Below, in pieces: positions 3,224 to 62,965 of a stretch of 64,000 nt of DNA. Source of the DNA: Azolla caroliniana. Taxonomy: Eukaryota; Plantae; Polypodiophyta. Under the pieces are notes generated by a model. The model worked only from the letters and a program-made list of their open reading frames with translations. It was not told the DNA's origin and did no database searches. Made by a program: the position numbers and the translations under genes. The stretch lies in contig JBHGNT010000013.1 of NCBI GenBank assembly GCA_043228905.1, positions 19,654,001-19,718,000 on the forward strand, given 5' to 3'. Each line of letters begins with the position of its first letter. The stretch's first letter is position 1.

Positions 3224-3849
3224 ACGGAAGATTATGTGATATGTGTATGTATGTGTATGAGAGGAAGAGAGAGAGGAAGATACACTTATGAACAATAAGA
3301 TAAATGGGGGATGATTAACAAGAGTGTAGCTAAAGACCTTTCTCTATATTAATAAGCAGGAAATTACAAAAATAGCCGCAATGAGGTATATATACATCTC
3401 ATGTGCAAAGGTGCACATGTGTGAGGAGAATATATGTACAAGGGTGTAAGTCTTAAATTGAATGAGCTCAATAGTGGGGAATCTAGAGATCTCCTACTTA
3501 AATATTATGAACAAAATCCTTATAGTCAACATTCAAAATAGATTCTATTTATGTAACTACTAAGTTACATGTTGACAAAAACTTCCAGACTTAGTTGAGC
3601 TTGATATCTCAACACTAGTGTTGAACCAAATGAGTTGTGATGAATAAGTAGACACCTATTTATGTCCTTATGGAGCATTCTAGAATGTTCTAGAGTATTT
3701 TAGATATTTAAGATAATGATAATGGTTAAGGGTTCGACACATATACAAAGAGGTTGTGGGTTCGAATCCTTGTAAGCCAAAATGTATATAATCATGATAG
3801 CCTCCACATTTGTCCCATGTCATGATACATTGGCGTTGCAAAAAGACCT

Positions 3850-4760
3850 CATTTTCATAGGAATCTAGTGATGCATCATGAAGCAAATGTGTTGCATCCC
3901 ATCTACCAAACCACTTTTTCATATCTTGCATCCAACCAGAACACAAAATTTTGCTTTTATACGTCTTTTGGATCTTTTTGCTTGCTTCCCAGGCAATTCT
4001 AGAAAGTCGATGTGAGGGATTTTTTTAAATCTTAAGCATGTATTGAACAACCCTTTCTATGACCATGATCTCAATGGGAAGTGATTCCGTCTTAAGGAAG
4101 AGGGTATAGGTTCAAAATGTTTTTCGATGTTTTCAATCTCTTTTAATGTAGATTTAGGTATGCTACCACCCATACTTCCACCCCATAGAGAAGCATCGGT
4201 GTCACAAAAGTGTCGAAAATGTATTACTTGAGGAACAAACACTTAATATCTCCATGATTGCATGTGTTCTCATTTAATGCATAATATGCCCTCTTTTCCC
4301 CATCTAAGCCAAGTGTAGCACATTCATTCCATCTATGATTTGAAGGAACTTCAAGGCCAAGATATCCAAAGCTTTCTACGCATTCAAGTGGCTCATTATT
4401 GTACATAATGTATGGTTTATCTTTTTGTTTACTCTTCACAAGAATGGTGTTACGGGATATTAAATGGTCATGCATGTTACGGGCATGACCATTTAATATC
4501 CCGTGGTGAGAATTTATTGTAGTATTCTATACACGTGGATAAGTAAATGGTCATGCCCGTAACAAATGGTCTTTGTTTTATAGTTATTGACACTTAATTT
4601 AGTATGCATGCAAAATAAATTCAATGCCTTCATAAGATTTTGTGCATCTTCTAAAGTATTTGCAAAAAGCACAACATCATCTGCATATAACAAAAGTATA
4701 ATGACTACATTTCCAATGACACTTTTCAAACATATATTGTATGCATATATAAATAAATAA
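3850..4760 (-). pseudogene. Decayed LINE reverse transcriptase fragment
   Basis: Minus frames give LLYADDVVLFANT, LSVNNYKTKTILV (once the 4448-4564 insert is removed) and VESFGYLG; many stops and frameshifts; ends approximate. Confidence 0.75.
4448..4564. mobile_element. 117-bp foldback element built only from one LTR terminus
   Basis: TGTTACGGG...CCCGTAACA termini; 5-bp TSD AATGG (4443-4447, 4565-4569); 4475-4543 closely matches the reverse complement of the LTR end at ~8946-9014 and ~40489-40557. Confidence 0.85.
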
Positions 4761-5220
4761 ATAAATAAATTCAAGATAGTGTAGTGGAGAAAGTTATAAA
4801 TAGATTGTAGGTTTGAATCTAGTAAGAAGCATAATAAACTTCTATTCTTCCACTTGCAAACTAATATATGATGTGAGGCATCGGGTTCTCGTGCTAAGTA
4901 TAAAATGTCGATGGTTTTGGTTTAGTAAATTTGAAGCAATAATCCAATTCTTGCTTGTTATGCAATTATGTTTTACAATAATCTATGTATATTGATCCCA
5001 CATTATGAGACGACCTTAATTGCTTGCTATGCAATTGCGTTTTACGTTAATGTATATATATTGAGCCTACATTATGAGATGACCATACTTAAACGTCACC
5101 TCAAAGATGAATATATATCCATCCCAAAAGAAAATGGATAGCATTGTGATATAGACGTTTGTGATCTCAAAACCCATCCTCATCCAATTTCACAAGTTTC
5201 ACTAAGCTCCCCAACAATAC

Positions 5221-5541
5221 TGTTGGGATTACAGTCCCTCCGGATGGGATGGTCAGATGTCCGGGAATCGGGAATGAAGACCCGGTTCCGGAGCCGGATG
5301 ATGAAGACCCGGTTCCGGATCCGGATGATGAAGACCCCCGGCTACGGAGCCGGATGATGAAGACCCCGGAGAGAGATCCGGATGCGGGGACATATTTGTG
5401 AATATGTTTGCCAAGGGCCCTTGAGGCTATATTTGTAAATAGCCCGAAAGTCATATGTGTATAAATATGACTTAGGGCAAACAGTTTGTTGTTGTTGCTC
5501 ATTTTTCTGCTTTCCACTTAGAGGGAGCGAAGTGAGAGCAG

Positions 5542-5578
<37 letters not shown>

Positions 5579-5842
5579 GAAGAGGTTGTTGCCTCTGTGT
5601 ATTACCGCCGCCTGTGGCGAAGACAGTGAGCTCAAGGTTGTTGCCTTGTAGCTTCGCCATTGTACATCTCTGCGTATAGTGATAGTTGGAGTCTTGCACT
5701 CCCGTGGTTTTTTCCCATTTAGGGTTTTCCACGTAAAACATCCCGTATACTCTTCTCTCTATTGTCTTCGTGCATTTTGCATTTCCTGTTTTCTGTGAGT
5801 TGATCCTATTCCTCGGTGGTGGCCGAGCACTGTTTTTCAACA
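5221..5842 (+). mobile_element. Solo LTR (622 bp), probably Ty1/copia type
   Basis: TGTTG...CAACA termini; 5-bp TSD AATAC (5216-5220, 5843-5847); internal gaagacccggttccgga repeats; TATA at ~5460; (GA)n tract. Confidence 0.85.
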
Positions 5843-6015
5843 AATACTACACAATAAGAAAATGTAGACAACAACCTCAACATCTTAGTAATGGACAGGC
5901 GAGATAATGAGAATTGCTTAGAAACCTTGATCCAAATCATCGAAAGAAAATGAATGGTAAGAATGAGCGGAAGTGAAGTGCTAAAAATAAATATACCAAT
6001 TTTCAAAGAGAGATC

Positions 6016-7772
6016 TGTTACCCGTATAGGTGTACGGGAGGGTTAGGTGTAATGTGGAAGGTGGTGTGTGATGTGTAATATGAAATGTGAATGTGTGAGA
6101 GTTAGGTGAGGTAAGTAGGTGTACCTACGTCCATTCGGCTTTTTGTAAAGATCTTCTATTATATAAATCCTCACTCATGGGGCATGAAAAGATGATATCG
6201 AAGTTGCTCTAAATTGTGTCTGTCTCGATTCTCACTCTCTCTCATTCGTTCGCTCTGTGGATCTCATCTCTCCCTCTCTCTCCTCACACTCAAACCCCCT
6301 TGGGAGGGGGGTGGAGCCGATCTTGGCTCCACCCCCCACCCATAAACACATGGCACGCCCTACGGCCTACCCCCCTTGAGTAGAAGTCTCTCTTTCCCTC
6401 TCTGTTCCCCTATGTGTCTCTAGGTCTTCATCTTTATGTTGTGTGTGTTTGTGCCACTCTATTGCTTGTATGCAGGAGGAGGAAGAAGCTGATTCAGAAA
6501 TTAATAAATTGCAAGAAACTAACAATCAAACACCTTCTAAATCACTCCATCAAGAGGTTCATGGCAGAGTTTGAAGGAAATGACAACAGTAGCCATAGCT
6601 AACCTATTCTGGAATAAAGTGGTGAAGTCACTTGTATATCTGGTTTAGTGCCAAGATCTGCCAATGATTCAAGTTTAGAGAAAAGAGGAATGCAAGTCAT
6701 GAGCAAGGAAGATAAAGCTGCATATGATCGATGTATAATGATGTATCAACAGAGTGCTTGTGCTTCATTAATGCTCTTCTTTGATTCTCATGAAGGGTTT
6801 GTGGTGGAACCGAATAGTGAGATCAAGTATTTAACCATTGTAGCAGAGTATATAGGTGATGTAGATTATATAAGCAAATGTAAAAGAGTAACAGAAATGA
6901 TAGAGTTAGCATTATAATGGGTTTACTCCTTACAAATTTTCTAGATAACGATTGGGTCATATGTCCTAATAAAAGAGGCCACATTGCTCTATTTGGATCA
7001 AGTATCATTAACCATGCACTAGAAGGGAAGAAGAAACAAAACCTAAGGTGTATAAGGTTCAATATTGAAGAGAAAACACATGCTTTGTTTATTTCCATCG
7101 ACAACAAGAGCCAAACGGACAAAGAGTCGGCTGGTGGATAAAGACGACCAACGCACTGAGTCAGCAGCCGGATGGCAGCAACTAGCCATGCAAATGGTTC
7201 GGCAACCAACTAGCCGATAGCCGAGATGGCCAAAGTCCTGCTAGAAAGACACAACCGAACCGAGAGCCGGCCGAACAGACGACCATGGCTAGCCGGTTGA
7301 GACCATCGGACAACGTCGGCATATAGCAACGGCCAAGTGATTTCCAACCATCGAGAGAAGACCGATGGAGTTTCCGGTCAACGAGTTTTTGGCATGGGCT
7401 TGTGGGTACGACGTGCAATGCAGTGTCCCACGGGTGTGCCATGTGTTACCCGTATAGGTATACGGGAGGGTTAGGTGTAATGTGGAAGGTGGTGTATGAG
7501 GTGTAATATGAAATGTGAATGTGTGAGTGTTAGGTGAGGTAAGTAGGTGTACCTACGTCCATTTGGCTTTTTGTAAAGATCTTCTATTATATAAATCCTC
7601 ACTCATGGGCCATGAAAAGATGATATCGAAGTTACTCTAAATTGTGTCTGCCTCCATTCTCTCTCTCTCATTCGTTCTCTCTGTGCATCTCATCTCTCCC
7701 TCTCTCCTCACACTCGAACACCCTTGGGAGGGGGGTGGAGCCGATCTTGGCTCCACCCCCCACCCATAAACA
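6016..7772 (+). mobile_element. Non-autonomous LTR element (TRIM/LARD-like, 1757 bp) with a captured gene fragment
   Basis: LTRs 6016-6348 and 7444-7772 (TGTT...AACA, ~95% identical by eye); TSD AGATC (6011-6015, 7773-7777); PBS-like TGGCACGCCC at 6351-6360; no gag or pol. Confidence 0.92.
6545..7105 (+). pseudogene. Decayed, intronless ATXR5/ATXR6-like SET-domain (H3K27 monomethyltransferase) fragment
   Basis: Motifs PRSAN..LEKRGMQVMSKED, FDSHEGFVVE, TIVAEYIGDVDY, VICPNKRGHIA, INHALEGKKKQNLRCIRFNI match the ATXR5/6 SET region; frameshift near 6900; terminal YYDYN motif absent. Confidence 0.85.
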
Positions 7773-9029
7773 AGATCTCTACCCAACCCACAGGGGTTAT
7801 CAAGAGTATTACCTCCAAGATTGAATTTGTCAGATCGATAAGATACACATTCCTTAATTTATCAACCACCACATAGGGGGGAAACATGCTTTAGACTCAT
7901 AATAGTTTTAGGGAGGCTAGATCACTCAAATAAACACAACTTATCAGTTGAACATCACTAGATTGCTTAATCCTACACAAGACAAAGAGAAAAGGCACAT
8001 TGGGATTGCAAAGACACTTAATTAAATTCAATCTTACTCTTCCCCAGGAAAATGGAAAGATCAATTGATAGTAAGTTCGTTTATAAAGTAGTTGTATTTT
8101 CCCATGACACCCTTAGACTTATGATCAATGGAAATCTTCAAGGGTTTTTCCTAGTAATTCCCAAAATGCCCTTCTATTTATGTCATATACTTATCCTAGA
8201 TTATCTTATCATATTTCTAGAACTAATTCACTTACTTAAGGCACAATCACTTATTAGATGATTAATAGTGTTCCAAAATAAAGGCCTTTGGGGATGCCAC
8301 ATCAACGTAGAGGAATGGGGAAGATATGAAGCATGGTTTAACGAAAATGTGATAAAACATACTATAAGGGAATGGATCTAGCGAGACCTAACATATAGCC
8401 GAGAGTAAGTGTTAAAAAGAGTTGTGTAGACCATCCACCTAGAGTAGGAGGGCATCCACCCATATTGAGAGGGAATCCACTCAAGAAATGAGGATCCACC
8501 CAAGGGTGAAGATAACCCAAAGAGAGAGGATATCTACTCAAAGGGACCATGTACTATGTATTAGAGATATGTACTAATGTAAGCAAAGGATAAGGATAAA
8601 TGATAGATCTAGATAGAGAGGAAAGAGAGAAAGAAGGGTGTTGATCCACCCGACCACCCCCGAGCGAAGGGATTGAGACGGACTCGAGCCTTGATCGGCG
8701 TCCCATACCACCGTCGTGGCGTCGAGTCGTACCTGGTGTTGGCGCGCTTGCTACAAGAGTTGAACACCCGAGAAACAGAGTCTCGACGTAGTCAAAAAGA
8801 TCATGAAATGAGTGTAGCTAGGCCTCTTATTTATAACAATACCCAAGGCCCCCATGCAAGTTCACACTTGGCCTAATGGGTTGTCTCAATCCCGAGGATT
8901 AAAAAGTAATCCTCCCCTTCTTTACACTCTCGTTTAACCCTCACCCTTATCCACGTGTATAGAATACTACGATAAATTCTCGCCACGGGATATTATATGG
9001 TCATGCCCGTAACATACTCCCCCTCTTTA

Positions 9030-13246: not shown

Positions 13247-14893
13247 CTTCCTCGTCTCTGTGTAACAGCTCTTTCTGCCGTTGTTGTCGCCGTTTATTGT
13301 CGTCCTCGTCGTCGTCGCCGTCGTCTGCAGCCGGTGTCTGTTGCCGACTGTTGCTGTCGTCGTCTGATGACTACCGTTGTCTGTTGTCGTCGCCGTCTGC
13401 TACTATCTGCAGCTAACGTCTGCCGTCGTTTGACGACTGCCACCGTCACCGTCGCCGTCGCGGGGTGTTTCTTCTCCATTTTCTCTTGACGTTGTGAAGT
13501 GCCATTTTCTTGACAAGTTCGTGGGTGGGTTCTTTTGGTGTGCTCGTCGTGTGCTACAAAATGCCGATGTGATTGCGACATACACACAAACTCGGCTAAG
13601 TCTCGAACCCATTTATTTTACCTTTTTTTCTTATTGACACCACAATGACGTCTAAACGAACTAAGGAACATAAGGATATACAAGACGAGGCTATAAGTAA
13701 GGAGCACTTTTTAGATATGTTTAATCGTTTAACAAAAATAGAGATGGATATGAAAAAATGGGTGAAAGACGCCGAAACCCACAAGAAAAAAGATAGAGAG
13801 GAAAAAGACGCCCTCAAGGCCGAAATAGAACAACTTAAAGTGGAAAACACCGACCTTAAAAAACAACTTAAGGACATCGAGGTATCTCGAGAAGACGGTG
13901 AAATATCCTCTATAGAGGATATAAAGGACGAAATTAAAAAAGTTAAAGAGGAAGTTAATAATAACATAGAGTTAGCTAAAACGGGTTGGGTAGATGTGGT
14001 TAAAAGAAACATTAAATAAGAAATAAAAGATGAAAATATTGTTAATACCACCCTTGAAGAAGAGAAAATGCGTCAGGCCCGACGCTTAAATGTACGTTGT
14101 CGTGAAGAAAACCGTTCATAGGCGGAATCGGCGCACCAAGGCGTGGGAACCGGTTCTTCACGCGCGCACGCTCCAAGTTGTACATAGAAGCGAATTAGGA
14201 GGATAATCGGCAGGAACGGGCCCTAACACAAGTGGAGACAAAGACCGCGCGAACAGTCTTTTCGGTCGCGCGCGCGAGCTAAGGAACTGTACGAGTCGGC
14301 GACGTAACTACGCGGGTGCGTGAAGAACGGAGCGGATCCCTGCTCGAAAGGGACAGGGAATAAAGCTGACATGACGGCCTGCTCGTCGGCCTATATAAGG
14401 AGCAGGAAAGAGCTGTTGCAGGGATCTGGCGCAGAGAGGACGAAGTGCTGTCGGACCGTTTCTGGACGCTTCTCTCTCTGTTTCCTTCCTTCTTGAGCTC
14501 GATAGCTTTTCTGTGCAGGGTTCCGAGGAGGCTCGCGCTGTTTCGAGGAACGCCCGAGTGCTTCCGGCAGCACCTCCGACCTGCTACCCCTTTGTGCGTC
14601 GAAGCGAACAGGCATCGGCATCTGTTCGCCGGCCTGTTCGGTTGTAGCCAACCTGTGCCCCATCGAGGGTTGTAGTCGTGTTAGCCATTTTGTTAATATA
14701 CATATTTAGTCATTCGCATCTGTCTGTGTCGGTGTCTGTTCGCGTTCTCCGTGCTGAAGGGCCGTGTCCCTGTGTATCCCCGGTCCTGCGTAGCCGGTTC
14801 TCTCTCTTTCTCCTCCCTCGCTTGCTCTTTGGTTCGAGACCCCCGCGGTCCCGCCTCGTTTCCACACGCACTTGCGTAATATCTCGACATCTT

Positions 14894-14910
14894 TGGTGAA
14901 CCCGACGTGA
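14894..14910 (+). promoter_or_regulatory. Primer-binding site complementary to tRNA-Trp
   Basis: TGGTGAACCCGACGTGA is the reverse complement of the plant tRNA-Trp 3' end (TCACGTCGGGTTCA-CCA); the same site is in copy 2 at ~34823-34839. Confidence 0.85.
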
Positions 14911-14933
14911 AGGAGGCGGCAGAAGAGCAGAAG

Positions 14934-17900
14934 ATGAGGGGGTCGGATCTTGCAGAGGCCATGGCTTCGGCCGTGGACCGGATTGTAAACGCGCACGAGG
15001 GCACCGGTGCCCTCGACAGAGCCATTGAGGCGGTCGTCGGCACGATCGGCCGGTTCGATGGGAAGGATGCCACGAAGTATTTGGCGTCCTACGGTCCAGA
15101 GATGCTGATGCGGGACATTCCGGAAGAAAGGCGTCTTGCCGGATTTCCCCGAGTGGCGATGCTGAGCATCCATGCGGAGGTGCTCGAGGTGCGGGCGGAG
15201 AGTCGTACCTGGGAGGAGTTCGAAGGTCGGCTCCTAGAGAAATACGGGCTGGACGACGCGCTCCGGCTTTCGAAGCGAAGGTTCATGGAATGGGTGGAGT
15301 CCCCGGGGAAGGGAAGAAACGCGTCGGCACTCCTCCGGGAGTTCGAGGAAAACTTTGCGCGCCTTTCGGCGCTCGACCGAACCATCCTGGACACGAGCCG
15401 GGTCTTGCTGTTTGTCAAGTCGGTCGACGAGCGGGATCGGGAGCAAGTGGGCCTCTTGCTGGAAACCGAAGACGGGCTCACTACCGACTGGGCGGCTGTC
15501 AAGAAAGTCTGTGGCCGTTTCGACAAACGGCGAGAATGGGCGGATAACGGGGCAACCGGGTCGGGCTCGGTCGCAGCAAGGGAGCTCGAACCAGCGCCAC
15601 AGGTGCGAAAGGAAGAGACCCGAGAATGGTTGGAAACCGGTTCGGCTTCAATCGGCGTAGTCAAAGGCTCAACCGGAGGAGCGGCGCTGGAGGAATTGAC
15701 GAGGGCGATAAAGGACCTCCAAATCGCGCAAGCCCGAAGGGAAGGTGGCGAACCGGCTCGTGACCGACGGCCGGCGGCAGGAAACAGGTGCATGTGGTGC
15801 GATGAAGTCGGCCACATTCGGAAGGACTGCGGCGACTTCGCGGAGGCGCTGAGGAACAGGGTGGTGTACCTGTGGGAAGGACGGGTGCATGCCAGCGACA
15901 CCCGAAGGGCCCTGAGCCGAAACGACGGGCGAGGTGGTATGAAAAGGTTGATGGAAGAGGCGGCGGCCCGACACGCGGAAACCGTCCACTACTCGGCGTC
16001 GGCCGGCATTCGAGTCGGGGGCGGCGAGGCCCGAAGGGAAAGCAAAGCCGGATTCTGGCCGACGATGCTGGAAGGCCTTGCCGGTGCAAGGCTTAAAAGG
16101 GAGGAATCGGACCGTGCGGAGAAACGGGTACGGGAGATGACCGGGTGGAGCGACCCGGTCGAGGAAAAGACGGGCTTCGTGGAAGCCGCTTGCCAGAACT
16201 ACGAGGCTCTGGTAGAAGAGAAGCGGGTGGGGAAACCCGGGACGACCGGGCCCTCACAACGATACGAGACCCGGTCCGGGCCACGACGGGACGAAACCGG
16301 CGGGGCCGGTACGCAAGATAAACCCCAGAAGGGCAGGTACCGTCTGGGGACGGAGATAGAAAGGACCACGGACTTACGAAAGGTCCTGGAGGAACGGATC
16401 CTCGACAGCAAGGTGGAGCTGTCGTTACAAGAGGTGCTGGGAATCGCCAAGAAGGAGTTCCACGACTCCATCGTGGACTTGGTAAAACGGAAGAGGCTGT
16501 CAACGGAGACAGAACTGGAAAGACCGGTGGAAGTGCGGACGACGCACCTAGACGACATGGCGCTGGGAGACGAGTGGGCGGAAAGCCACTATTCGAGACC
16601 ACACTGGGCCCGAGCGACCACGGAAACCCCGGTGAAGATCGGCGATGTCCAGGAACCGGTGATAGCTTTGGTGGACCACGGATCGGAGATCAATTTGATG
16701 TCCATGGACTTCTATAAGAAGGGCAGATGGCCGATCAACACCAAGCACGGGTGGAAAATAAGGGCAGCAATGCGCGCCACCGAGGAACTGCACGGGGCCT
16801 GTCCGAATGTGCAAGTCAAGATCGGCGACGTCGAGATTGACCAGCACTTCTTCGTGCAGGAGACGTCTTCGCATCCGGTCATACTGGGAGAGCCGTACAT
16901 CACGGCGGCGCGAATGGAGACCAAGGTGCTGGACAATGGTTCAGCCTACGCGAGGGTCAAAAGCCAAGACGGGCGCCATTCGGTCCAGTTTCTGACGGTA
17001 CGGCCGAACCACGAACGTAACCGCGACTCCCTGGAACCGAGGGGATTTTTAGAGAGGACTGCCAAGGCGTGGGGCCGCGACAGTCTGGATGCTCCGGGAA
17101 AACCCCACATCTGTACGATAAAACCGTGTACAATAGGTAGGAAATTTTGCTTCTCCGACAGCGGAGCATGTACGATGGTCGGCATCGCCGGCCGAGAGAA
17201 AACAAAGACGGAGGGGAGACTTCGAGCGTGCGGAGTTCTCGGCCCTGACGAAGAAATCAGTGGCACCGTGGAGGCGGTCTCCTTCGACGACACCTTGGGA
17301 ATGCTGGGGAAGGTAGTCGAAGAAGACCTTAACGAAGACCGGACGATACCGGTATGTTCCGAAGAAATGTACGAAGTCATCGCGGACTTTGGTCAGGGGC
17401 TCGAGTCGGATCGGACGGCCCGAGTAAGCACCAAGTACAAGACCGTGGACCGGAAGGTAAGGCCAGTCGCGGTACCGTTACCGGAGGGCAGCGAGTCGCG
17501 AATCAAAGGGGTTGCATCGGACCCCAGCTTACGAGATCCGGCCTGTATAGGACACACCTTCACCAACGAGACGCTCCGAGAGCTCAAAATCGGTGGGGGC
17601 GGGTTCCTACTACCGGCGGAGGAAGACCGGTTTCGGAGAATGCTCGGAAGGCACGGGAAAGCCTTCGCATTCTCACCGGAGGAAATCGGGTGCGTAGACC
17701 CGACGATCGTAGAGCCAATGGTGATATTCACGGTACCGCATGTACCGTGGAATCTCAAGCCAATTCCGGTTCCGAGAGCTCACATCCCGAAGTTGATGGA
17801 GTTGTTGAAGCAGAAAGTTGATATGGGCATTCTCGAGCCGTCGAGCGCCCCATATTCAAACCGATGGTTTACCGTACCAAAGAAAAACGGATCGTTGCGC

Positions 17901-20531
17901 TTCATTCAGGACCTGCAGCCGGTCAACAGAGTGACCATTCGGAACGCAGGGATCGGACCGACCATAGACGAGTTCGCGGAGGCCTTCGCCGGAAGGTCGA
18001 TTTTCTCGGTCGGTGATCTATACTCAGGGTACGACCAGTTCCAGCTAGCCGTGGAAAGCAGAGACATTATGACGATGCGAACTCCCCTCGGCCTAGTGCG
18101 GATGTGTACGCTGCCGCAAGGAGGGACCAACTCGGTGGCCCACATGGTGAATGCAATGAACAAGGTGCTGAGGGACTGCATCCCGGACATCACCATGCCG
18201 TTTCTAGACGACATCCCGATCAAGGGATGCCCGGTAGAAGAGAAGGACGAGACGATCAGGCCGGACGGATGCCGGCGATTCGTGATGACGCACATCGACG
18301 ACTGCGAGAAGGTGCTGCAAAGGCTAGAGGATGCGAGGCTCACCTTCTCGGGGGAGAAGTCAGCCTTCGGGCAGTCAGAAATCATGGTGGTCGGACATTT
18401 ATGTGGACCATATGGCCGGAAACCGTCTCCGGCAAAGGTAGAAGCCATCTCCGCGATGAAGCCTGATTGCAGCTCGGTCACGGAAGTACGAAGATTCTTG
18501 GGAGCATGCGCCTTCTACCACATATGGATCCCGCATTACGCGCACGTCGCGGAGCCGCTGTACGGATTATTGAAGAAAGGGCGAAGATTCGAATGGCTAG
18601 ACAAGCACACGGAGTCGGTCCGGAAGCTGAAGGAGGCTCTTTCGGCAGCACCGGCGCTCCGAAAGGCCGTCTACAGGAAGGGCACCCCAGTGTACATAAC
18701 GGTTGACACGAGTCCGACCGGAATCGGGTGGGTCGTCAACCAAGAAGACGAGGACGGCAATCGGTTCCCGATCCGATTCGGCGCGAAGGTCCTCAGTGAG
18801 CGGCAGCGAGGATACGCCCAGGTTAAACGCGAACTCTGGGGTATCGTTTCGGCGATGAAGGCCGACAAGGACTATCTGATCGGGACAGAGGTAATCATAG
18901 AGACGGATTGCATGCCGATTCTCGGCATGGTTTCCGGATGCGCGACGCCGGACCTGGCAATGCTCAGGTGGATAGCGTACATCAAGTCCCTGGACCCGGA
19001 AATACGACACATTTCCGGGAAAGACAACGCCATGGCCGACATGCTTTCAAGCGCGAGATTCGATGACGAGGGCGGCATGGTTTCGGAGGACGAAGAGGTC
19101 GGCGTGGACTTCTTCGAGGCAGCATACGTAACAACCGGCGGGACGAGCACTCCGGCGCTTAACGACTTTGACGCGAGCAAGTACGACGGGGAGTGGCTGC
19201 AGATCGGCGGGTTCTTGAGGACAATGGCGCCGGATGCGTCATGGACGAAAGACGAGGCCAACCGGATCCGGAAGAAAGCGTACCGGTTCTTTCTCCGGGA
19301 TGGCTATCTATGGAAGCACCCGAAGAAGAGGGACGGCGCTCCGCTCCGGGTGGTGGCGATGAAGGAAGAACAGGAGGAGCTGCTGACGGCCTACCACGAC
19401 AGCCCTTGGGCCGGACACCGTGGAACTTGGGCCACGTTCGAGAAGATAAAGGAGAAGTACTGGTGGCCGGGACTGTACCGGGACGTGCATCGATTAGTGA
19501 CAACTTGCGAGAGCTGTCAGATGCACTCCGTGGTCCGACACCGGGACGAGCTTCACCCTACGTACCCTCCGACCATCCACTTCAAATGGATGGTAGATCT
19601 GGTGACGATGCCAATGGGGGTAGGACAGATGCGGTACCTGGTCCTAGCGCGGGAGGATCTGACGAACCAGGTGGAAGGCCGGGCCCTTCCGAACAAAACG
19701 ACCGCGGCCGTATGTCGGTTCCTAATCGAGGACGTGATATGCCGGTACGGGTGCGTCGGGAAGATCGTGGCCGACCGAGGGGAGTTGGACGCCGAAGAAG
19801 CCGCGGAGCTGTTCGACCGGCTGGGAGTCAAGCTCTCGCTCACCACTGCGTACAATCCGGAGGCGAATGGAAAGGTGGAGCGCGGACACGGACCGATCGT
19901 CAAGGCGTTGGTTCGAGCATGCGGAGGCCAAGTCGGTAACTGGCCGCGGCTGCTACCTTATGCTTTGTGGGCAGACCGGACCACGCACAGTTCGGTAACC
20001 GGGTACATGCCGACGGAGCTCATGTTCGGCCAGAAGCCGATCATGCCGATGGAACGGACGATCTCCTCGTGGGCAACGGTCGACTGGAGGGACGAGATGA
20101 GCCGGGAGGAGTTGTTGGCCGCGCGTATACGACAGCTCGAGCGGAGACCGGAGGACGTGGAGCTGGCTGCGGAGAAGCTCCGGGTGGCGAGGACAAAGAA
20201 CAAAGCCAGGTTCGACCGAACGCACCGGCTCCGACCGAAGAAAATCGACGAAGGTGACTGGGTGCTCGTCTACGACAGCAGCCTCGACAACCAGCACCGA
20301 GCTACACGGAAGTTCGCACGAAGGTGGTTCGGGCCTTACGTGGTACGGAGCGCCAATGACAACGGGACATATCACCTGGCGGAACTAGACGGCACGAGAA
20401 TGGCGATACCGGTTGCAGGGAAGCGGATCAAAGCGTTCAAGAAGCGACACGACGACGAGCCAGACCCGGCTCTCCTAGTCAGCAGTGACGAACGATCCGA
20501 AAACGAGGAAGAACCAACGGGCGAGGAATGA
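14934..20531 (+). CDS. Gag-PR-RT-RNase H-integrase polyprotein (one frame in this copy)
   Basis: CCHC CMWCDEVGHIRKDC; protease LVDHGSEIN; RT DLYSGYDQF, LPQG, FLDD; RNase H VDTS; integrase HHCC, DDE and GPY; no chromodomain. First ATG at 14934; the track starts at GTG 14907. Confidence 0.92.
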   Translation: MRGSDLAEAMASAVDRIVNAHEGTGALDRAIEAVVGTIGRFDGKDATKYLASYGPEMLMRDIPEERRLAGFPRVAMLSIHAEVLEVRAESRTWEEFEGRLLEKYGLDDALRLSKRRFMEWVESPGKGRNASALLREFEENFARLSALDRTILDTSRVLLFVKSVDERDREQVGLLLETEDGLTTDWAAVKKVCGRFDKRREWADNGATGSGSVAARELEPAPQVRKEETREWLETGSASIGVVKGSTGGAALEELTRAIKDLQIAQARREGGEPARDRRPAAGNRCMWCDEVGHIRKDCGDFAEALRNRVVYLWEGRVHASDTRRALSRNDGRGGMKRLMEEAAARHAETVHYSASAGIRVGGGEARRESKAGFWPTMLEGLAGARLKREESDRAEKRVREMTGWSDPVEEKTGFVEAACQNYEALVEEKRVGKPGTTGPSQRYETRSGPRRDETGGAGTQDKPQKGRYRLGTEIERTTDLRKVLEERILDSKVELSLQEVLGIAKKEFHDSIVDLVKRKRLSTETELERPVEVRTTHLDDMALGDEWAESHYSRPHWARATTETPVKIGDVQEPVIALVDHGSEINLMSMDFYKKGRWPINTKHGWKIRAAMRATEELHGACPNVQVKIGDVEIDQHFFVQETSSHPVILGEPYITAARMETKVLDNGSAYARVKSQDGRHSVQFLTVRPNHERNRDSLEPRGFLERTAKAWGRDSLDAPGKPHICTIKPCTIGRKFCFSDSGACTMVGIAGREKTKTEGRLRACGVLGPDEEISGTVEAVSFDDTLGMLGKVVEEDLNEDRTIPVCSEEMYEVIADFGQGLESDRTARVSTKYKTVDRKVRPVAVPLPEGSESRIKGVASDPSLRDPACIGHTFTNETLRELKIGGGGFLLPAEEDRFRRMLGRHGKAFAFSPEEIGCVDPTIVEPMVIFTVPHVPWNLKPIPVPRAHIPKLMELLKQKVDMGILEPSSAPYSNRWFTVPKKNGSLRFIQDLQPVNRVTIRNAGIGPTIDEFAEAFAGRSIFSVGDLYSGYDQFQLAVESRDIMTMRTPLGLVRMCTLPQGGTNSVAHMVNAMNKVLRDCIPDITMPFLDDIPIKGCPVEEKDETIRPDGCRRFVMTHIDDCEKVLQRLEDARLTFSGEKSAFGQSEIMVVGHLCGPYGRKPSPAKVEAISAMKPDCSSVTEVRRFLGACAFYHIWIPHYAHVAEPLYGLLKKGRRFEWLDKHTESVRKLKEALSAAPALRKAVYRKGTPVYITVDTSPTGIGWVVNQEDEDGNRFPIRFGAKVLSERQRGYAQVKRELWGIVSAMKADKDYLIGTEVIIETDCMPILGMVSGCATPDLAMLRWIAYIKSLDPEIRHISGKDNAMADMLSSARFDDEGGMVSEDEEVGVDFFEAAYVTTGGTSTPALNDFDASKYDGEWLQIGGFLRTMAPDASWTKDEANRIRKKAYRFFLRDGYLWKHPKKRDGAPLRVVAMKEEQEELLTAYHDSPWAGHRGTWATFEKIKEKYWWPGLYRDVHRLVTTCESCQMHSVVRHRDELHPTYPPTIHFKWMVDLVTMPMGVGQMRYLVLAREDLTNQVEGRALPNKTTAAVCRFLIEDVICRYGCVGKIVADRGELDAEEAAELFDRLGVKLSLTTAYNPEANGKVERGHGPIVKALVRACGGQVGNWPRLLPYALWADRTTHSSVTGYMPTELMFGQKPIMPMERTISSWATVDWRDEMSREELLAARIRQLERRPEDVELAAEKLRVARTKNKARFDRTHRLRPKKIDEGDWVLVYDSSLDNQHRATRKFARRWFGPYVVRSANDNGTYHLAELDGTRMAIPVAGKRIKAFKKRHDDEPDPALLVSSDERSENEEEPTGEE

Positions 20532-21764
20532 AGACGGGCCGGTTTTCTCCGTCCCAACTCTCTTGGCGCATACCGGAGGATGCGCGGTTAGGTGGGGGCG
20601 GATGTCGTGAAGAAAACCGTCCATAGGCGGAATCGGCGCACCAAGGCGTGGGAACCGGTTCTTCACGCGCGCACGCTCCAAGTTGTACATAGAAGCGAAT
20701 TAGGAGGATAATCGGCAGGAACGGGCCCTAACACAAGTGGAGACAAAGACCGCGCGAACAGTCTTTTCGGTCGCGCGCGCGAGCTAAGGAACTGTACGAG
20801 TCGGCGACGTAACTACGCGGGTGCGTGAAGAACGGAGCGGATCCCTGCTCGAAAGGGACAGGGAATAAAGCTGACATGACGGCCTGCTCGTCGGCCTATA
20901 TAAGGAGCAGGAAAGAGCTGTTGCAGGGATCTGGCGCAGAGAGGACGAAGTGCTGTCGGACCGTTTCTGGACGCTTCTCTCTCTGTTTCCTTCCTTCTTG
21001 AGCTCGATAGCTTTTCTGTGCAGGGTTCCGAGGAGGCTCGCGCTGTTTCGAGGAACGCCCGAGTGCTTCCGGCAGCACCTCCGACCTGCTACCCCTTTGT
21101 GCGTCGAAGCGAACAGGCATCGGCATCTGTTCGCCGGCCTGTTCGGTTGTAGCCAACCTGTGCCCCATCGAGGGTTGTAGTCGTGTTAGCCATTTTGTTA
21201 ATATACATATTTAGTCATTCGCATCTGTCTGTGTCGGTGTCTGTTCGCGTTCTCCGTGCTGAAGGGCCGTGTCCCTGTGTATCCCCGGTCCTGCGTAGCC
21301 GGTTCTCTCTCTTTCTCCTCCCTCGCTTGCTCTTTGGTTCGAGACCCCCGCGGTCCCGCCTCGTTTCCACACGCACTTGCGTAATATCTCGACAACGTGT
21401 CACTGGGCTCAAGGAAGGTGCATCCCCAAATGAGGATGCACAAACACTTGGGAAAATGTTAGGGTACACAGAGGCCCTACCTATCACCAAAGCATGGAGG
21501 GCCGGGCATGACACAACTAGGAAGAGAGCCTTAGTCCTTCAATTTAAAGACTTAGACTCTAGAATCACTTTCTTTAAGAAGAGACCAATCCTTCGAGGAA
21601 TGGGTGGGGACCCCATCTATCTCGATGAAGACCTCACTAAGATGCAAATTGAGCATCGCAAGAGTTGTATGCCACGAGTTATGCAAGCTCGTAAAGAAGG
21701 CCATCGCGCCTTTTACCGAGACGGGTGAGTGATCATAAATGATCGCACTACTAATTGACAGTGT

Positions 21765-24700
21765 GTGGCTCATGTGACAGAAAATGCACTTAGGATGACC
21801 TTATGGAATTGTAACGGCGCACTCTGGGCACACCCCGGCCGCCTAGAGGAGATACTAAAGGTATCTGATATACTTTTCTTGGTAGAAACACATCAGAGCC
21901 CAAATAGAGGACTCCCACGGGTCGAAGGACTCCGTTGGGAGTCCGCTTTTAGACAAACCTCACGTCGACACACTACTGGGGGATCTTGAGGTGTCGCGAT
22001 ACTGTTTCATAGAGAGCTACATAATAGGATAGAAATAATGAAGATAGACCCAGAAGCTCGTTTTATGTGGGTGAAAGTCTCCACAAGCAAAGACCAAGCA
22101 GTATTTTTCGCCATTTGTTACTTTCCCCCAAAAGGATCCCGTTATAATATTGGTGGCTTGGCGAGATTAGTTGATGAAGGAATGCCACATGGGCCTTCCC
22201 CATACGAACCCCTATCGGATGACATAATCCGATATTCTTCCCAAGGAGAAGTATTTCTTGTAGGAGACTTCAATGCGAGAACCCAATCCTGACAATGCAC
22301 AGTATTTCAGATGAATAGAAACCTAGAAATGGTAAATGTCGATCCTTTAGACATAGGCACCACACGTAGATCAAAGGATCAAGGTGCGGACACCACGAGC
22401 TTTGGCCATCATCTGTTCGAACTTGGCAGTCGGCACCGGATGGTCATATATAATGGTTTAGCTAAGTGGCCGGGCTCGGAAGAGCTCACATGTTTCCCAC
22501 ATGGAGGAGGGGAAAGCACAGTTGATTATCTAATAGGACGCCCTGAAGCTACCCACATGATTAACTCCTTCCGAGTGGCCCCATGCCCTATTGGCGCAGA
22601 CTATAGTTTCTTATACTTCGAGCTAAAATGTGATATCACTAATGTCACCAAGTCTGGTCAACCATGCCATCACACCACAATACATTTCACACATGAGCTC
22701 TCTGACATATACTCTCAACATGTTCAGGCCCATCTCCCCTCCCTTGATCCCTCCCTACCGTTAGAAAGCCTTAGTACGAAACTCACACACATCCTTCACT
22801 CCGCAGCAGCTAGCAATTTCCCATATACAAAACACTCAAATCAAGGTAGATCAGGATCAATGCCACAAAATAAATGGTATGATGAGGATTGTAGGGACTT
22901 ACATAGACAACTTACAGTATCGCAACTTAATGGTAGTATTACCTCCATACAAGCTCGCAAAGAAATGCGCAAGATGACACGTCGTAAGAGACGAGCGTGG
23001 GAGGCATCCCAATATTGGGAACTCTACCATATGCTCATGAGTGGCGATTGCGCCACGGCATGGAAGAGACTACAGGAGCCAAGACCACAAACACCCATCG
23101 AAGATCCCGAAACTTGGCACACATATACAGAGAGACTTTACCAAATCCCAAACCAACCACCCATTCCAATGCCTTCCACACCCCGGCCTACCACGGGGAC
23201 ACTTTTCACGACCTCTAGGGTCGTGAAGGTCATAAAGAAATTACAACATAGGAAGTCCATGGACCACACTGGATTGCGAGCAGAACACATTATATATGCG
23301 AGAGAGTACCTAGCTCCCTTGCTAACTCTAATCTTCAATCGTGCCCTTGCGGAGGGTTTTCCACCACAATGGACTATGAATACAGTGGCCCCCATACATA
23401 AAGGGGGGGACCCCATGGACCCAAATACATATAGGACCATTATGATAGGCCATACCCTTGCTAAGTTATATGGTGCAGTAATGGAAGCAGAGCTTAGCGA
23501 CTATATGGAGACCCTAAACCTTCGTGCACCTGAACAAGCTGGCTTTAGATGAGCCTTCTCCACTATTGATCATATCTTCACACTTAGATGCCTAATTGAC
23601 CAAACTAAGGCTCTCAAGAAGAAATTATATTGTTGTTTTGTGGACTTCCGCAAAGCCTTTGACACAGTCCCTAGAGAGCGGTTGTTTGATAGACTTAAAA
23701 GCTTGAGGATACCAAATGATATGGTATGGGCCATCTACGCACTATATGAACAAGTGTTCGGGTGTGTCCGATGCCTGGTGGCCTAGGTGTAAAACAAGGT
23801 TGCCCCCTATCACCGACACTTTTTGGGATCTACATTGATGAGATCATAGATTTTATTGCTCGTGAGGGAGGCACCGGAGTGGTCCTTGGGGATACGCAAG
23901 TTCGTATCTTCCTCTATGTGGATGACATAGTTTTGCTCTCTGAATCCGAACACGACCTACAAAGGCACCTTAATACCTTAGATGACTTTTGTGTACAACG
24001 AGGATTGGTAGTGAATCTAGGGAAAACGAAAGTCCTTATCTTCCACACATCGGCCCAAGTTAGAGTTAAGTGTCACCTAACTATCTCCCATAGCCCAGTT
24101 GAGGTGGTTGAATCATACGTCTATCTCGGAGTCACTTTTAGTGCCCGCTCAGGTAAATTTTCGATGACACGGGCAACAAAGGATAGACTCACGAGAGGAC
24201 ATGCATCCCTCTCACTCCTAGAGAGACAATGCCACCAAGCACACTTTCAAGAGCCAGGGACTAAAGGGTGGCTCTTTGACTCATTAGTGACCCCCTCCCT
24301 CATGTATGCATCAGTGGTTTGGGCTCCGGGACCATCTTTCATGTGGACGCAATTAGAGAGACCATTGGTGATGATGCTATCATGCCAACTCCGAAGCAAA
24401 TCGATTGTACCACATGACATTATTAGGGCTGAGTTCACGTTACCCCCAATGTTAGTAGAGGCACTTTTTCAACTTGTAGTCTTCATTCACAGGATACATA
24501 GCCAACCACATGATAGAATATCTCATCAAGCCTTTAAGGCCTCTCGATCATTGTATGAGTCCGGCTATACTAGCTCATGGTATGGCATGATGGTGAGTTG
24601 GCTTCTTGAGAATGGTCTAGACATTAATAACCTACCTCCCCTTAGGTACAACCACACGAGTGATAACACTTTAATCTCTCATGAGGACCGCAATAAAGTA

Positions 24701-25480
24701 ATACGCCAAGAAATATTGCAAATTTACACTCGGTGTAAATGGATCACCCCACTAGAGCCACTCCCATCTAAAATGTCGTACTATAAGAAACACTTCATGC
24801 ACTTCTCTGAGTTAGGTTTTATCACACGGCCAAAATATCTACATGTATTCTTACCACATGCACTAAGGGTTGCCATTGGACAACTTAGAATATCATCTCA
24901 CCAACTTGAGATTGAGAATGGCCGTACTAGTGGAGTCCCTAGGGAGGAAAGGATATGTAGGTTATGTCACATAGAGATAGAGGATGAGTACCACTTTACA
25001 TGCAAGTGGCCAACCTATGCCGAGATAAGGGCAAAATACCAAGACATACTTGGTTCTTCTCCCACCCTCCCCAAACTATTAGATACTCTAGATATAAAGA
25101 AATTAGGCAAATACATTCTAGAGCTAAAACAACACAGAGAGAATAAGTTACAAAATGTTGACAATAATGTTGCTAATGATCACGAACATGTAACAAATGA
25201 AGTTTTTCAGGAACAAGGGGAGACAACGAATGTCGACACACTTGCACCACTCGGCCTTTCCATTGATGAGGCAGAAAACCAGAGAAGAACCAGACGTCCT
25301 CGGGTGCTGGGTTTCAAAGCAACTCGACGTGATGTGGAAGCAATATTGAAAATAAGGGAACGTGAGCTACACCGCCTAGAAGCCATGGCTAGGGCACTCT
25401 CTACATTGGAACCATGGGTCACACCCACATCAAGACCCTTTGACCCCCCACTTCTTTTCGAGAGGCTTGGGTGGAAATAA
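21765..25480 (+). pseudogene. LINE ORF2 (AP endonuclease, RT, C-terminal CCHC), copy A
   Basis: WNCNG, VETH, GDFNA, STVDY; EQAGFR, DFRKAFD, KQGCPLSP, YVDD, YLG; ERICRLC...HF; stops at 21987, 22290 and 23550, and a frameshift at ~23775. Confidence 0.9.
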
Positions 25481-26198
25481 AATTAGGCTTAGTGTATGTC
25501 ACTTTCGAGTATACTATGTATTGTACACTACTAGACTCTTTTAGTTTAAGTTCTATTTTTTACTTAATTTTATTTTAGTTATGATGACTGCATAAATACT
25601 CTTTTGTTGTAAACCAATTGTCTCATGGGCCAAATTTGGCCTTAGAAGACGTTAATATATCTTTCTTTCTTTCTTTCTTTCTATTATAGAACCAGGTGTC
25701 ATGGCAAGACTCGAACCCATGACTTTATGCTACATGGGTCGAGCTCTTACCATTAGATTAGGAATTGTATTTTGTAGGATATTATCTTCATTTATACTTT
25801 ATCATAGAAAATTGATGTATATTCCAGATCTCTCTGGAACATTCTAGAAGCTTCAAGATTATTCCTAAAAACACTATAAAAGGAGGCACAAGGCATTGTT
25901 TTGAACCAAATTGGTTCAACGCCAGTCTTAAGCCTCCTAGCCGCTTGTACTTATCTTTTCACATAATATATAGCTGCTGTCATCATCTCTCTCATTCTCG
26001 CTATCTCTCTCTCTCTCTCCTCTTCTCACTTCCTCTCTCGGGAATCTTACGCAATCCCGTCCTCTTAGTACTAATAGTACTGCTGTTCTTAGTACTAATT
26101 CCATCTCTGTTTTAGTACTATTCCTGACAGTTTGAACCAATTTCCACCTCTAGCCTACTTGTCACTCTCCCTCATCCTCCTACCCTTTTCCCTATACT

Positions 26199-28796: not shown

Positions 28797-28896
28797 NNNN
28801 NNNNNNNNNNNNNNNNNNNNNNNNNNNNNNNNNNNNNNNNNNNNNNNNNNNNNNNNNNNNNNNNNNNNNNNNNNNNNNNNNNNNNNNNNNNNNNNN
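28797..28896. other. Assembly gap (100 N)
   Basis: Run of 100 n. Confidence 1.
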
Positions 28897-30751
28897 AAAC
28901 CTAGAAATGGTAAATGTCGATCCTTTAGACATAGGCACCACACGTAGATCAAAGGATCAAGGTGCGGACACCACGAGCTTTGGCCATCATCTGTTCGAAC
29001 TTGGCAGTCGGCACCGGATGGTCATATATAATGGTTTAGCTAAGTGGCCGGGCTCGGAAGAGCTCACATGTTTCCCACATGGAGGAGGGGAAAGCACAGT
29101 TGATTATCTAATAGGACGCCCTGAAGCTACCCACATGATTAACTCCTTCCGAGTGGCCCCATGCCCTATTGGCGCAGACTATAGTTTCTTATACTTCGAG
29201 CTAAAATGTGATATCACTAATGTCACCAAGTCTGGTCAACCATGCCATCACACCACAATACATTTCACACATGAGCTCTCTGACATATACTCTCAACATG
29301 TTCAGGCCCATCTCCCCTCCCTTGATCCCTCCCTACCGTTAGAAAGCCTTAGTACGAAACTCACACACATCCTTCACTCCGCAGCAGCTAGCAATTTCCC
29401 ATATACAAAACACTCAAATCAAGGTAGATCAGGATCAATGCCACAAAATAAATGGTATGATGAGGATTGTAGGGACTTACATAGACAACTTACAGTATCG
29501 CAACTTAATGGTAGTATTACCTCCATACAAGCTCGCAAAGAAATGCGCAAGATGACACGTCGTAAGAGACGAGCGTGGGAGGCATCCCAATATTGGGAAC
29601 TCTACCATATGCTCATGAGTGGCGATTGCGCCACGGCATGGAAGAGACTACAGGAGCCAAGACCACAAACACCCATCGAAGATCCCGAAACTTGGCACAC
29701 ATATACAGAGAGACTTTACCAAATCCCAAACCAACCACCCATTCCAATGCCTTCCACACCCCGGCCTACCACGGGGACACTTTTCACGACCTCTAGGGTC
29801 GTGAAGGTCATAAAGAAATTACAACATAGGAAGTCCATGGACCACACTGGATTGCGAGCAGAACACATTATATATGCGAGAGAGTACCTAGCTCCCTTGC
29901 TAACTCTAATCTTCAATCGTGCCCTTGCGGAGGGTTTTCCACCACAATGGACTATGAATACAGTGGCCCCCATACATAAAGGGGGGGACCCCATGGACCC
30001 AAATACATATAGGACCATTATGATAGGCCATACCCTTGCTAAGTTATATGGTGCAGTAATGGAAGCAGAGCTTAGCGACTATATGGAGACCCTAAACCTT
30101 CGTGCACCTGAACAAGCTGGCTTTAGATGAGCCTTCTCCACTATTGATCATATCTTCACACTTAGATGCCTAATTGACCAAACTAAGGCTCTCAAGAAGA
30201 AATTATATTGTTGTTTTGTGGACTTCCGCAAAGCCTTTGACACAGTCCCTAGAGAGCGGTTGTTTGATAGACTTAAAAGCTTGAGGATACCAAATGATAT
30301 GGTATGGGCCATCTACGCACTATATGAACAAGTGTTCGGGTGTGTCCGATGCCCAGGTGACCTATCTAATAAACAAGGTTGCCCCCTATCACCGACACTT
30401 TTTGGGATCTACATTGATGAGATCATAGATTTTATTGCTCGTGAGGGAGGCACCGGAGTGGTCCTTGGGGATACGCAAGTTCGTATCTTCCTCTATGCGG
30501 ATGACATAGTTTTGCTCTCTGAATCCGAACACGACCTACAAAGGCACCTTAATACCTTAGATGACTTTTGTGTACAACGAGGATTGGTAGTGAATCTAGG
30601 GAAAACGAAAGTCCTTATCTTCCACACATCGGCCCAAGTTAGAGCTAAGTGTCACCTAACTATCTCCCATAGCCCAGTTGAGGTGGTTGGATCATACGTC
30701 TATCTCGGAGTCACTTTTAGTGCCCGCTCAGGTAAATTTTCGATGACACGG

Positions 30752-57500: not shown

Positions 57501-57771
57501 CCGCGTGAATCAGATCTTAAGACCTATCTCTGATAAGAATAAGGAATCATCTCTTTGTGAACATGCAGAAAAATTAGCTATGGCCTTTGGCATCCTAAAT
57601 ACTTTGGATGGGCAAACCTTGCGAATCTCAAAAAATTTACGAGTGTGTAACGATTGTCACATCACGAGTAAGATGCTAACCAAGATTGAAAAGCGTGAAA
57701 TCATTCTTCAAGACACCTCTTGTATTCATCATTTTAAGGATGGTGAGTGTTCTTGTGGTGATATGTTCTGA
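54525..57771 (+). CDS. PLS-class PPR protein with E and DYW:KP-type domain, ~965 aa; exons 54525-54717, 54956-55041, 55153-57771
   Basis: Repeated P-L-S triplets (NVVSWTALIGGY, FACALKAC, VGNSLIDMYARCG); KKPAIAVIEV, HAEKLA, CNDC, HHF..CSCGDMF. The two 5' exons are inferred from in-phase GT-AG sites and are less certain. Confidence 0.9.
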
Positions 57772-62875: not shown

Positions 62876-62965
62876 GTCTGCAGAACGAGGGGGGGGGAGA
62901 AAGATCTCTCGGCGTGGCTGCTGTGAGAAAGACACAGACCGAAGAGGAGTGCTCAGCGAAGGGAA

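What the first reader, a model, noticed from the sequence alone, without database searches (positions are those of the whole stretch)
6016..7772. Non-autonomous LTR element carrying an ATXR5/6-like H3K27me1 methyltransferase SET domain
Seen: between two ~330-bp LTRs with TSD AGATC the only recognisable coding content is a sense, intronless ATXR5/6-like SET fragment (~6545-7105), frameshifted and lacking the final YYDYN motif. By eye the protein is much further from canonical ATXR5/6 than the ~5% LTR divergence would explain. Known: ATXR5/6 deposit H3K27me1, which restrains TE expression and heterochromatin over-replication, and angiosperm copies have introns. Inference: an old mRNA capture carried by a family. 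A TE holding a piece of its own silencing enzyme could act as a decoy or generate siRNAs against the host gene.
Basis: partly seen in the sequence, partly recalled or inferred. Interest (0 to 1): 0.82.

Follow-up and report, generated by a model that had tools for sequence, protein, structure and literature searches.

The report
Fern retroelement carries dead ATXR5/6 fragment
A small jumping gene, likely from a fern, carries a spliced, broken piece of the plant's own gene for a chromatin-silencing enzyme in several copies, but the piece decays like unselected DNA, so it is likely an accidental passenger rather than a weapon against silencing.

Summary
The anatomy is real: two LTRs (333 and 329 nt, K2P 0.041), target duplication AGATC, no gag-pol. 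The insert (6542-7099) is a spliced mRNA piece. An intact six-exon fern ATXR5/6 gene (L002, probably from a related species) matches it at 86%, with three introns cleanly missing. It is a family: two sibling loci, 15 sibling protein fragments, and intron-less joints in two further organisms. The capture is older than this insertion (K2P 0.167 to the host gene). But the piece is dead and unselected. It lacks the PHD finger and the SET C-terminus, frameshifts are shared between copies, dN/dS is 0.76-1.09 against the host and 0.85-1.9 between copies, and changes shared by copies hit 17 of 63 near-invariant residues (fern orthologues: 1). A protein decoy is not supported. Cross-talk siRNAs stay possible (99 of 550 21-mers within one mismatch of the host mRNA) but are untested, and I found no selection for them. 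Verdict: Bs1-like LTR gene capture, a new member of a known kind. Side value: the spliced insert marks the RNA strand of a family whose polypurine tract is replaced by a tRNA-end-like site.

The parts
6011..6015 (.). left target-site duplication AGATC
6016..6348 (+). 5' LTR, TG...CA; TATA-like TATATAAA at 6140-6147; G+C-rich hairpin at 6301-6342
   Evidence: calling it the 5' LTR is inferred from the polarity of the spliced insert and from earlier notes
6351..6360 (+). 10-nt primer-binding-site-like motif, 2 nt after the LTR; the same motif is in L001 and L003 (spacer CA, CA, CT)
   Evidence: the tRNA-Arg label is recalled and given in earlier notes, not tested here
6361..6541 (+). element leader, pyrimidine-rich, shared with L001 and L003; not derived from the host ATXR5/6 gene
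   Evidence: local alignment to L002 no better than shuffles
6542..7099 (+). captured spliced ATXR5/6 mRNA piece = host CDS nt 425-978 (most of exon 3, exons 4 and 5, first half of exon 6); exon joints at 6695/6696, 6796/6797 and 7020/7021; frameshifting indels near 6601, 6617 and 6880; in-frame 3-nt insertion near 6914
7100..7399 (+). element-derived 3' internal DNA; longer in L001 and L003; not from the host gene
7400..7441 (+). tRNA-3'-end-like segment ending in CCA 2 nt before the 3' LTR (inverted copy of the primer site at 7432-7441), where a polypurine tract would be expected; shared with a very high-copy family
   Evidence: function not tested
7444..7772 (+). 3' LTR, TG...CA
7773..7777 (.). 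right target-site duplication AGATC

Best explanation
This is a non-autonomous LTR retrotransposon holding a 558-nt spliced, doubly truncated piece of a host ATXR5/6 mRNA, likely captured once by reverse-transcriptase template switching and likely copied since as an unselected passenger by the enzymes of an autonomous relative. Shown: LTRs and target duplication, loss of three introns, several copies with the same insert and shared frameshifts, and neutral-looking decay. Inferred: co-packaging of the host mRNA and template switching (the junction microhomology cannot be seen without the parent element), mobilisation in trans, and a fern host. The element likely needs only its LTRs and its two primer sites; the ATXR5/6 piece would act as filler DNA and would make no working or decoy enzyme.
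For: Host gene L002: six exons, five GT-AG introns, 352 aa, 78% identical to Adiantum P0069. The insert matches CDS 425-978 at 470 of 547 columns and lacks introns 3, 4 and 5. Tree of 29 rows: the five element-borne rows form one clade (100/100), sister to L002 (100/98), with a stem of 0.33 against a host branch of 0. dN/dS over 172 codons, for kappa 1, 2 and 4: host-window 0.76, 0.91, 1.09; host-L001 0.61, 0.74, 0.88; between copies 0.85-1.91; none of 18 Fisher tests below 0.05. Changes shared by window and L001 hit 17 of 63 columns that are at least 95% conserved in 118 plant proteins, and 19 of 113 variable columns; three fern orthologues differ from L002 at only 1 such column each, among 28-33 differences. 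The 2-nt deletion is in all 3 copies and the 5-nt deletion in 2 of 3. Other copies have lost parts of the insert (L003; joints). PHD finger and SET C-terminus are absent. No poly(A) at the 3' junction. Summed contig depth, a rough hint only, is 4-14 times the flank over the insert but 650-1400 times over the family's ends in run X2, so insert-bearing copies look like a small minority of the family.
Against: Only three DNA copies were available, and L003 covers just 68-70 codons, so weak selection cannot be excluded. The changes shared by window and L001 give omega 0.60-0.83 (17 synonymous of 54, p 0.06-0.30), although at least 2 of those 17 belong to L002's own lineage. Some siblings keep open frames of 121-173 aa (P0017, P0165, P0175, P0176). 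The insert has persisted through several rounds of copying and in at least three organism labels. In L001, 21-mers with up to two differences are slightly more frequent than random (2 of 6 tests at p 0.035). L002 is probably not from the window's own species (92 other letters over a 1534-nt contig in run X2). dN/dS says nothing about an RNA-level role.
Confidence: 0.8

Rival explanations
1. RNA-level conflict: siRNAs made from the insert also match the host ATXR5/6 gene, so the host would moderate silencing of these copies (camouflage), or the host gene would be dampened in trans.
For: 17 of 550 21-mers match the L002 CDS perfectly and 99 of 550 within one mismatch. [quoted passage not shown] The insert is shared across organism labels.
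Against: Host-matching stretches are no more clustered than random once each indel counts as one event: window copy 0 of 6 tests below p 0.1. The insert has drifted about 15% from the host and is partly deleted in other copies. The host gene is intact in L002, and a contig joining exon 1 to exon 2, which the element lacks, exists in run X17 (RNA status is a guess). In maize, capture gave no rise in copy number.
Confidence: 0.12
2. Protein decoy: some copies express a catalytically dead SET piece that competes with ATXR5/6 for histone H3.1 or partners and lowers H3K27me1.
For: Open frames of 144-173 aa in siblings P0165, P0175 and P0176; an ATG at 6690 opens 75 codons in the window copy; an LTR promoter would lie upstream.
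Against: dN/dS near or above 1; invariant SET residues changed on the family stem, including N287H, R290L, G294S and N296I in the NIARF-GINNH motif; frameshifts shared between copies; no PHD finger, which ATXR5 needs for full activity (PMC5499861, passages); the SET C-terminus is missing, so the domain likely would not fold (inference). The long-frame siblings are a biased sample because only open frames get called as genes.
Confidence: 0.02
3. The piece was first a LINE-made processed pseudogene, or a DNA-level copy of one, that landed inside the element and was trimmed later; capture did not happen in the LTR particle.
For: LINE-like reverse-transcriptase remains occur in the window; junction microhomology was not demonstrated.
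Against: No poly(A) and no duplicated target at the insert's ends; truncation on both sides inside the coding region with gag-pol absent fits the LTR-mediated pattern (PMC5131818, passages).
Confidence: 0.06

Closest known systems
Maize Bs1 and LTR-mediated retrocopies (Tan et al. 2016, PMC5131818; passages read)
   Same: Partial, intron-less host mRNA between LTRs in place of the element's own genes; several copies across related species that share switch points; secondary retroposition as a non-autonomous element.
   Different: One donor gene found here against three in Bs1; no selected reading frame here; junction microsimilarity and transcription not tested; donor is a chromatin enzyme; host is likely a fern.
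Gene-capturing TEs with epigenetic conflict in maize (Muyle et al., 10.1101/777037; abstract and section 11 read)
   Same: Exon fragments of a conserved donor gene inside a TE, close enough in sequence for cross-talk siRNAs.
   Different: No siRNA or methylation data here; most maize captures (71%) were in a single element, whereas this one is in several.
Host ATXR5/6 H3K27 monomethyltransferases (PDB 4O30, 5VA6, 5VAC, 5VBC; PMC5499861 passages)
   Same: Clear homology to the pre-SET and SET region; direct descent from one fern paralogue.
   Different: No PHD finger, no C-terminal SET segment, three frameshifts, invariant residues changed. A role of ATXR5/6 in TE silencing is known from Arabidopsis (title in a reference list; otherwise recalled) and was not found tested in ferns.
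VANDAL/VANC anti-silencing TEs (review PMC13317346, passages)
   Different: VANC is a functional TE-encoded protein acting on sequence motifs; this insert shows no protein-level selection.
Non-chromovirus OTA (Athila/Tat) Ty3/gypsy elements (Neumann et al. 2019, PMC6317226, passages)
   Same: 5-bp target duplication and a tRNA-type primer site; earlier scan notes place the autonomous relatives here (unchecked).
   Different: No pol sequence, so lineage cannot be assigned from this element; no polypurine tract next to the 3' LTR.

Membership tests
Non-autonomous LTR retrotransposon | Two direct LTRs with TG...CA ends | tested here: met
Non-autonomous LTR retrotransposon | 4-6 bp target-site duplication | tested here: met
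   AGATC
Non-autonomous LTR retrotransposon | Primer-binding site just inside the 5' LTR | tested here: inconclusive
   10-nt TGG-starting motif 2 nt after the LTR, kept in 3 of 3 copies; no tRNA gene was at hand to pair it with; the tRNA-Arg label is recalled
Non-autonomous LTR retrotransposon | Polypurine tract just before the 3' LTR | tested here: not met
   a tRNA-end-like segment sits there instead; 3 of 3 other LTR elements inspected in the window have a purine tract next to one LTR
Non-autonomous LTR retrotransposon | No gag-pol; multiple dispersed copies | tested here: met
LTR-mediated retrocopy (Bs1 type) | Partial host mRNA with introns removed | tested here: met
   3 of 3 introns in the captured span are absent
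LTR-mediated retrocopy (Bs1 type) | Copies share switch points | tested here: met
   L001 shares both ends and L003 the 5' end; sibling proteins leave the SET alignment at the same residue
LTR-mediated retrocopy (Bs1 type) | Microsimilarity between element and mRNA at the junctions | not testable with these tools
   the insert-free parent element was not available (no genome held)
LTR-mediated retrocopy (Bs1 type) | Transcription from the LTR | not testable with these tools
   only contigs were served
Functional ATXR5/6 methyltransferase | PHD finger | tested here: not met
   host exon 1 is not captured
Functional ATXR5/6 methyltransferase | Complete SET domain including the C-terminal YYDYN segment | tested here: not met
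   homology ends at CDS 978 of 1059
Functional ATXR5/6 methyltransferase | Intact frame under purifying selection | tested here: not met
TE-borne anti-silencing factor (VANC-like or siRNA-based) | Conserved product that lowers host silencing of the family | tested here: inconclusive
   protein conservation not met; clustering of RNA matches not found for the window copy; siRNAs and methylation not testable

The most novel reading that the evidence does not exclude
A fern LTR subfamily turns the host's silencing against itself: siRNAs from its captured ATXR5/6 exons hit the host H3K27me1 methyltransferase gene in trans, so silencing the element weakens the silencing machinery, and that feedback has kept the insert through several rounds of copying and speciation.
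Probability: 0.06. Interest if true: 0.8.

Novelty: new member of a known kind. Interest (0 to 1): 0.3.

Why it matters
As found, it is a clean example of LTR-mediated gene capture with parent gene, lost introns and neutral decay all visible, in a lineage (likely ferns) for which my searches listed no such case. It is ordinary in kind. It has two uses. First, it is a natural test of the capture-conflict model on a gene that is itself part of heterochromatin control, with a built-in control (exons 1-2 not captured, exons 3-6 captured). Second, a spliced mRNA insert should lie in the same sense as the element's RNA, so it independently marks the strand of a family in which a tRNA-end-like site replaces the polypurine tract; this stripped element kept both primer-like sites and kept moving, which fits both being needed in cis (inference).

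Tried and rejected
No whole genome is held, so copies could not be counted directly. Pfam found no SET match in 5 frame pieces or in 2 sibling fragments. A 'longer' protein search with the first piece found nothing among 44 candidates, which is weak evidence. No RNA holder was listed for the element; this is no evidence on expression. Runs X9 and X12 gave no cover over most L002 introns or exon 1; a hole proves nothing. Rfam gave no tRNA match over 5900-7900, only 20 sub-threshold hairpin hits, and ARAGORN found no tRNA gene in the window. A first clustering test suggested excess host-matching 21-mers (p 0.008 and 0.005); it counted every gap column as a mismatch and vanished for the window copy when indels were counted once. 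I first leaned to reading the element on the minus strand (insert antisense), because the longer tRNA-like match and a purine run (6367-6378 on the minus strand, about 18 nt from the LTR) lie that way. I dropped this because a spliced insert should be in sense and because earlier notes orient autonomous relatives the other way; it is not strictly excluded. Host-versus-host control: of 11 exon differences taken from the 40 rows shown (of 245), 6 change the residue, all upstream of the captured span; the 4 inside it are all synonymous, too few to weigh much. Paper searches for a TE-captured ATXR5/6, for gene capture and for the primer motif listed no such case; I saw listings only for most, and did not open the second paper. 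No structure or complex prediction was run, since a truncated, frameshifted piece would not decide anything. Supplements were not read; capture lists in supplements could hold an ATXR5/6 case.

Full report
1. Observation. The element runs 6016-7772. Its LTRs are 333 and 329 nt, start TG and end CA, and differ at 13 of 329 columns plus two 2-nt gaps (K2P 0.041). AGATC lies on both sides. The frame pieces 6618-6878 and 6893-7090 match solved Ricinus ATXR5 SET structures at E 2e-21 and 5e-13. Pfam SET is missed by the pieces, but even an intact fern protein scores only 30.8 bits. No gag or pol remains were found inside. The neighbourhood is TE-rich: a solo LTR at 5221-5842 and Ty3/gypsy remains from 8557 upward.

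2. Host lineage and parent gene. Among the proteins fetched, the best full-length matches to the insert are fern proteins (Adiantum P0069 67% and 60% on the two pieces, then A. nelumboides and Ceratopteris), so the host is likely a fern. A metagenome scan returned 3 loci from 80 candidate stretches. L002 is a complete ATXR5/6 gene: six exons, five GT-AG introns, 352 aa, 78% identical to P0069 and 55% to Nelumbo ATXR6. It is probably from a related species, because the single-copy gene in run X2 differs from it at 92 letters over a 1534-nt contig, mostly intron. The insert corresponds to CDS nt 425-978 (window 6542-7099), 470 of 547 columns identical, and runs straight across the sites of introns 3, 4 and 5. 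This shows capture from spliced RNA. The PHD exon, exon 2 and the last 81 coding nt are absent. The internal DNA on either side does not align to the host gene better than shuffles. A second intron-bearing paralogue about 87% like L002 is seen in three runs; the low dS to L002 (0.14-0.19) and the tree point to the L002 type as parent, though I did not see the paralogue's sequence.

3. It is a family. L001 carries the same LTR, leader and insert (88% over 1350 columns) and L003 the same start with an internal deletion. Fifteen sibling protein fragments from ENA contigs were found; two of them belong to L001 and L003, and they may come from several species. In a 29-row tree the five element-borne rows form one clade (100/100) sister to L002 (100/98), with a stem of 0.33 and a host branch of 0. 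Contigs of four DNA runs show many variants and several deletions across the insert. Summed depth in X2 is 192-633 over the insert against 43-45 in the flanks, and 28,000-61,000 at the two primer-like ends; X3 shows 113-357, 21 and 3,600-8,400. Depth is not a copy number, but it hints at roughly 5-15 insert-bearing copies within a far larger family. Runs labelled organisms C and D contain joints that skip introns 3 and 4 and loose ends like the element's flanks, so the capture likely predates their split. One X3 contig bridges the right insertion junction by the tool's 31-letter rule; the other junction contigs cross by only 27-29 letters.

4. Age and decay. K2P is 0.167 from window insert to host, 0.055 between window and L001 inserts, and 0.041 between the window's LTRs. 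It is not adaptive-looking change. Over 172 gap-free codons (a zone round the 8-nt insertion left out), dN/dS is 0.76-1.09 for host-window, 0.61-0.88 for host-L001 and 0.85-1.91 between copies, depending on the transition weight; none of 18 Fisher tests is below 0.05. A neutral insert compared with a conserved host gene is expected somewhat below 1, because the host branch adds synonymous changes; two of the 17 shared synonymous changes are in fact L002-lineage changes. Shared amino-acid changes hit 17 of 63 columns that are at least 95% conserved among 118 plant proteins and 19 of 113 variable columns (p 0.12, no sparing of conserved sites), whereas three fern orthologues each differ from L002 at one such column. 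The window copy has frameshifting indels near 6601 (2 nt, in 3 of 3 copies), 6617 (5 nt, 2 of 3) and 6880 (8 nt, not in L001; the same altered ending is seen in P0171, P0173 and P0178). Broken copies were thus propagated.

5. Mechanism. The best reading is LTR-mediated retroposition as described by Tan et al. (PMC5131818, passages): a host mRNA packaged with the element's RNA, two template switches, then further copying as a non-autonomous element, as for maize Bs1. Shown here: partial spliced insert, LTR flanks, shared switch points, several copies. Inferred: template switching itself and mobilisation in trans. Not testable: junction microsimilarity and transcription. A LINE route is unlikely given no poly(A) and truncation at both ends.

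6. The functional ideas. A protein decoy fails on selection, frameshifts and missing domains; the PHD finger is needed for full ATXR5 activity (PMC5499861, passages). An RNA effect is open. 17 of 550 21-mers match the L002 CDS exactly and 99 within one mismatch. Cross-talk is documented in maize, with small advantages for the TEs but no rise in copy number (10.1101/777037, abstract and section 11; review PMC13317346, passages). Here the matching stretches are what random decay gives (window copy 0 of 6 tests below p 0.1; L001 2 of 6 at 0.035). The host gene is intact, and run X17, guessed to be RNA, holds a contig joining exon 1 to exon 2. That ATXR5/6 restrain TEs is Arabidopsis knowledge (reference title, abstract start of PMC13725609, otherwise recalled).

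7. Orientation and the odd ends. The motif TGGCACRCCC occurs twice in the window (0.15 expected): 2 nt after the first LTR on the plus strand and 2 nt before the second LTR on the minus strand. No purine tract abuts the second LTR, unlike the three other LTR elements inspected. The segment 7398-7443 folds into a hairpin with a free 3' tail. Earlier, unreviewed notes on this genome describe autonomous gypsy elements with such a tRNA-end copy before the 3' LTR. I did not check their gag-pol orientation. The spliced insert gives an independent pointer to the plus strand as the RNA strand, since template switching between co-packaged RNAs keeps sense (inference). The tRNA-Arg label is recalled and from those notes.

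8. Novelty and verdict. Paper searches listed no TE-captured ATXR5/6, and the scan's own notes had none. The donor is eye-catching, but the kind of object is well known and the insert behaves as a dead passenger. New member of a known kind; interest 0.3.

Noticed in passing
window 6351-6360 and 7400-7441: Primer-site-like motif at both ends in opposite orientation, each 2 nt from an LTR, with no polypurine tract at the 3' LTR. Contig depth there is about 100 times that of the insert, so the ends are shared with a very large family; the 2-nt spacer varies between copies. Fits earlier notes on possible tRNA priming of both strands.
   Followed up: partly
window 5221-5842: Solo LTR (TG...CA) of another family with target duplication AATAC, 170 nt left of the element.
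   Followed up: partly
L002 2022-2774 (laid runs X2, X9, X12): A second intron-bearing ATXR5/6 paralogue, about 87% like L002 and with longer introns. The tree also shows two fern ATXR5/6 groups that do not correspond to the flowering-plant ATXR5 and ATXR6 split.
   Followed up: no
window 14098-21394 and 30752-35622: Two very young GC-rich Ty3/gypsy copies (LTR pairs 99.9% and 100% identical); the first has a single 1883-codon gag-pol frame, the second is shorter and inverted.
   Followed up: no
window 22319-25696 vs 28897-30751 and 35623-37150: A LINE-like region is duplicated at over 99% on both sides of the 100-N gap at 28797-28896; may be a recent duplication or an assembly artefact.
   Followed up: no
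window 47731-53190: Young Ty1/copia element on the minus strand (LTRs 99.8%, 1388-codon frame, target duplication ACTAT) whose LTRs end in TA rather than CA.
   Followed up: no
window 55153-57768 (+) and 60863-62965 (-): Two host genes in single long frames: a DYW-type PPR protein (872 codons) and NOG1 (701 codons).
   Followed up: no
L003 785-3106: The sibling copy shows no second LTR in the 2.3 kb that follow; it is truncated or much longer than the window copy.
   Followed up: no
window 4452-4564: Short inverted fragments of the LTR end of the gypsy family at 8557-9015, forming a local palindrome.
   Followed up: no
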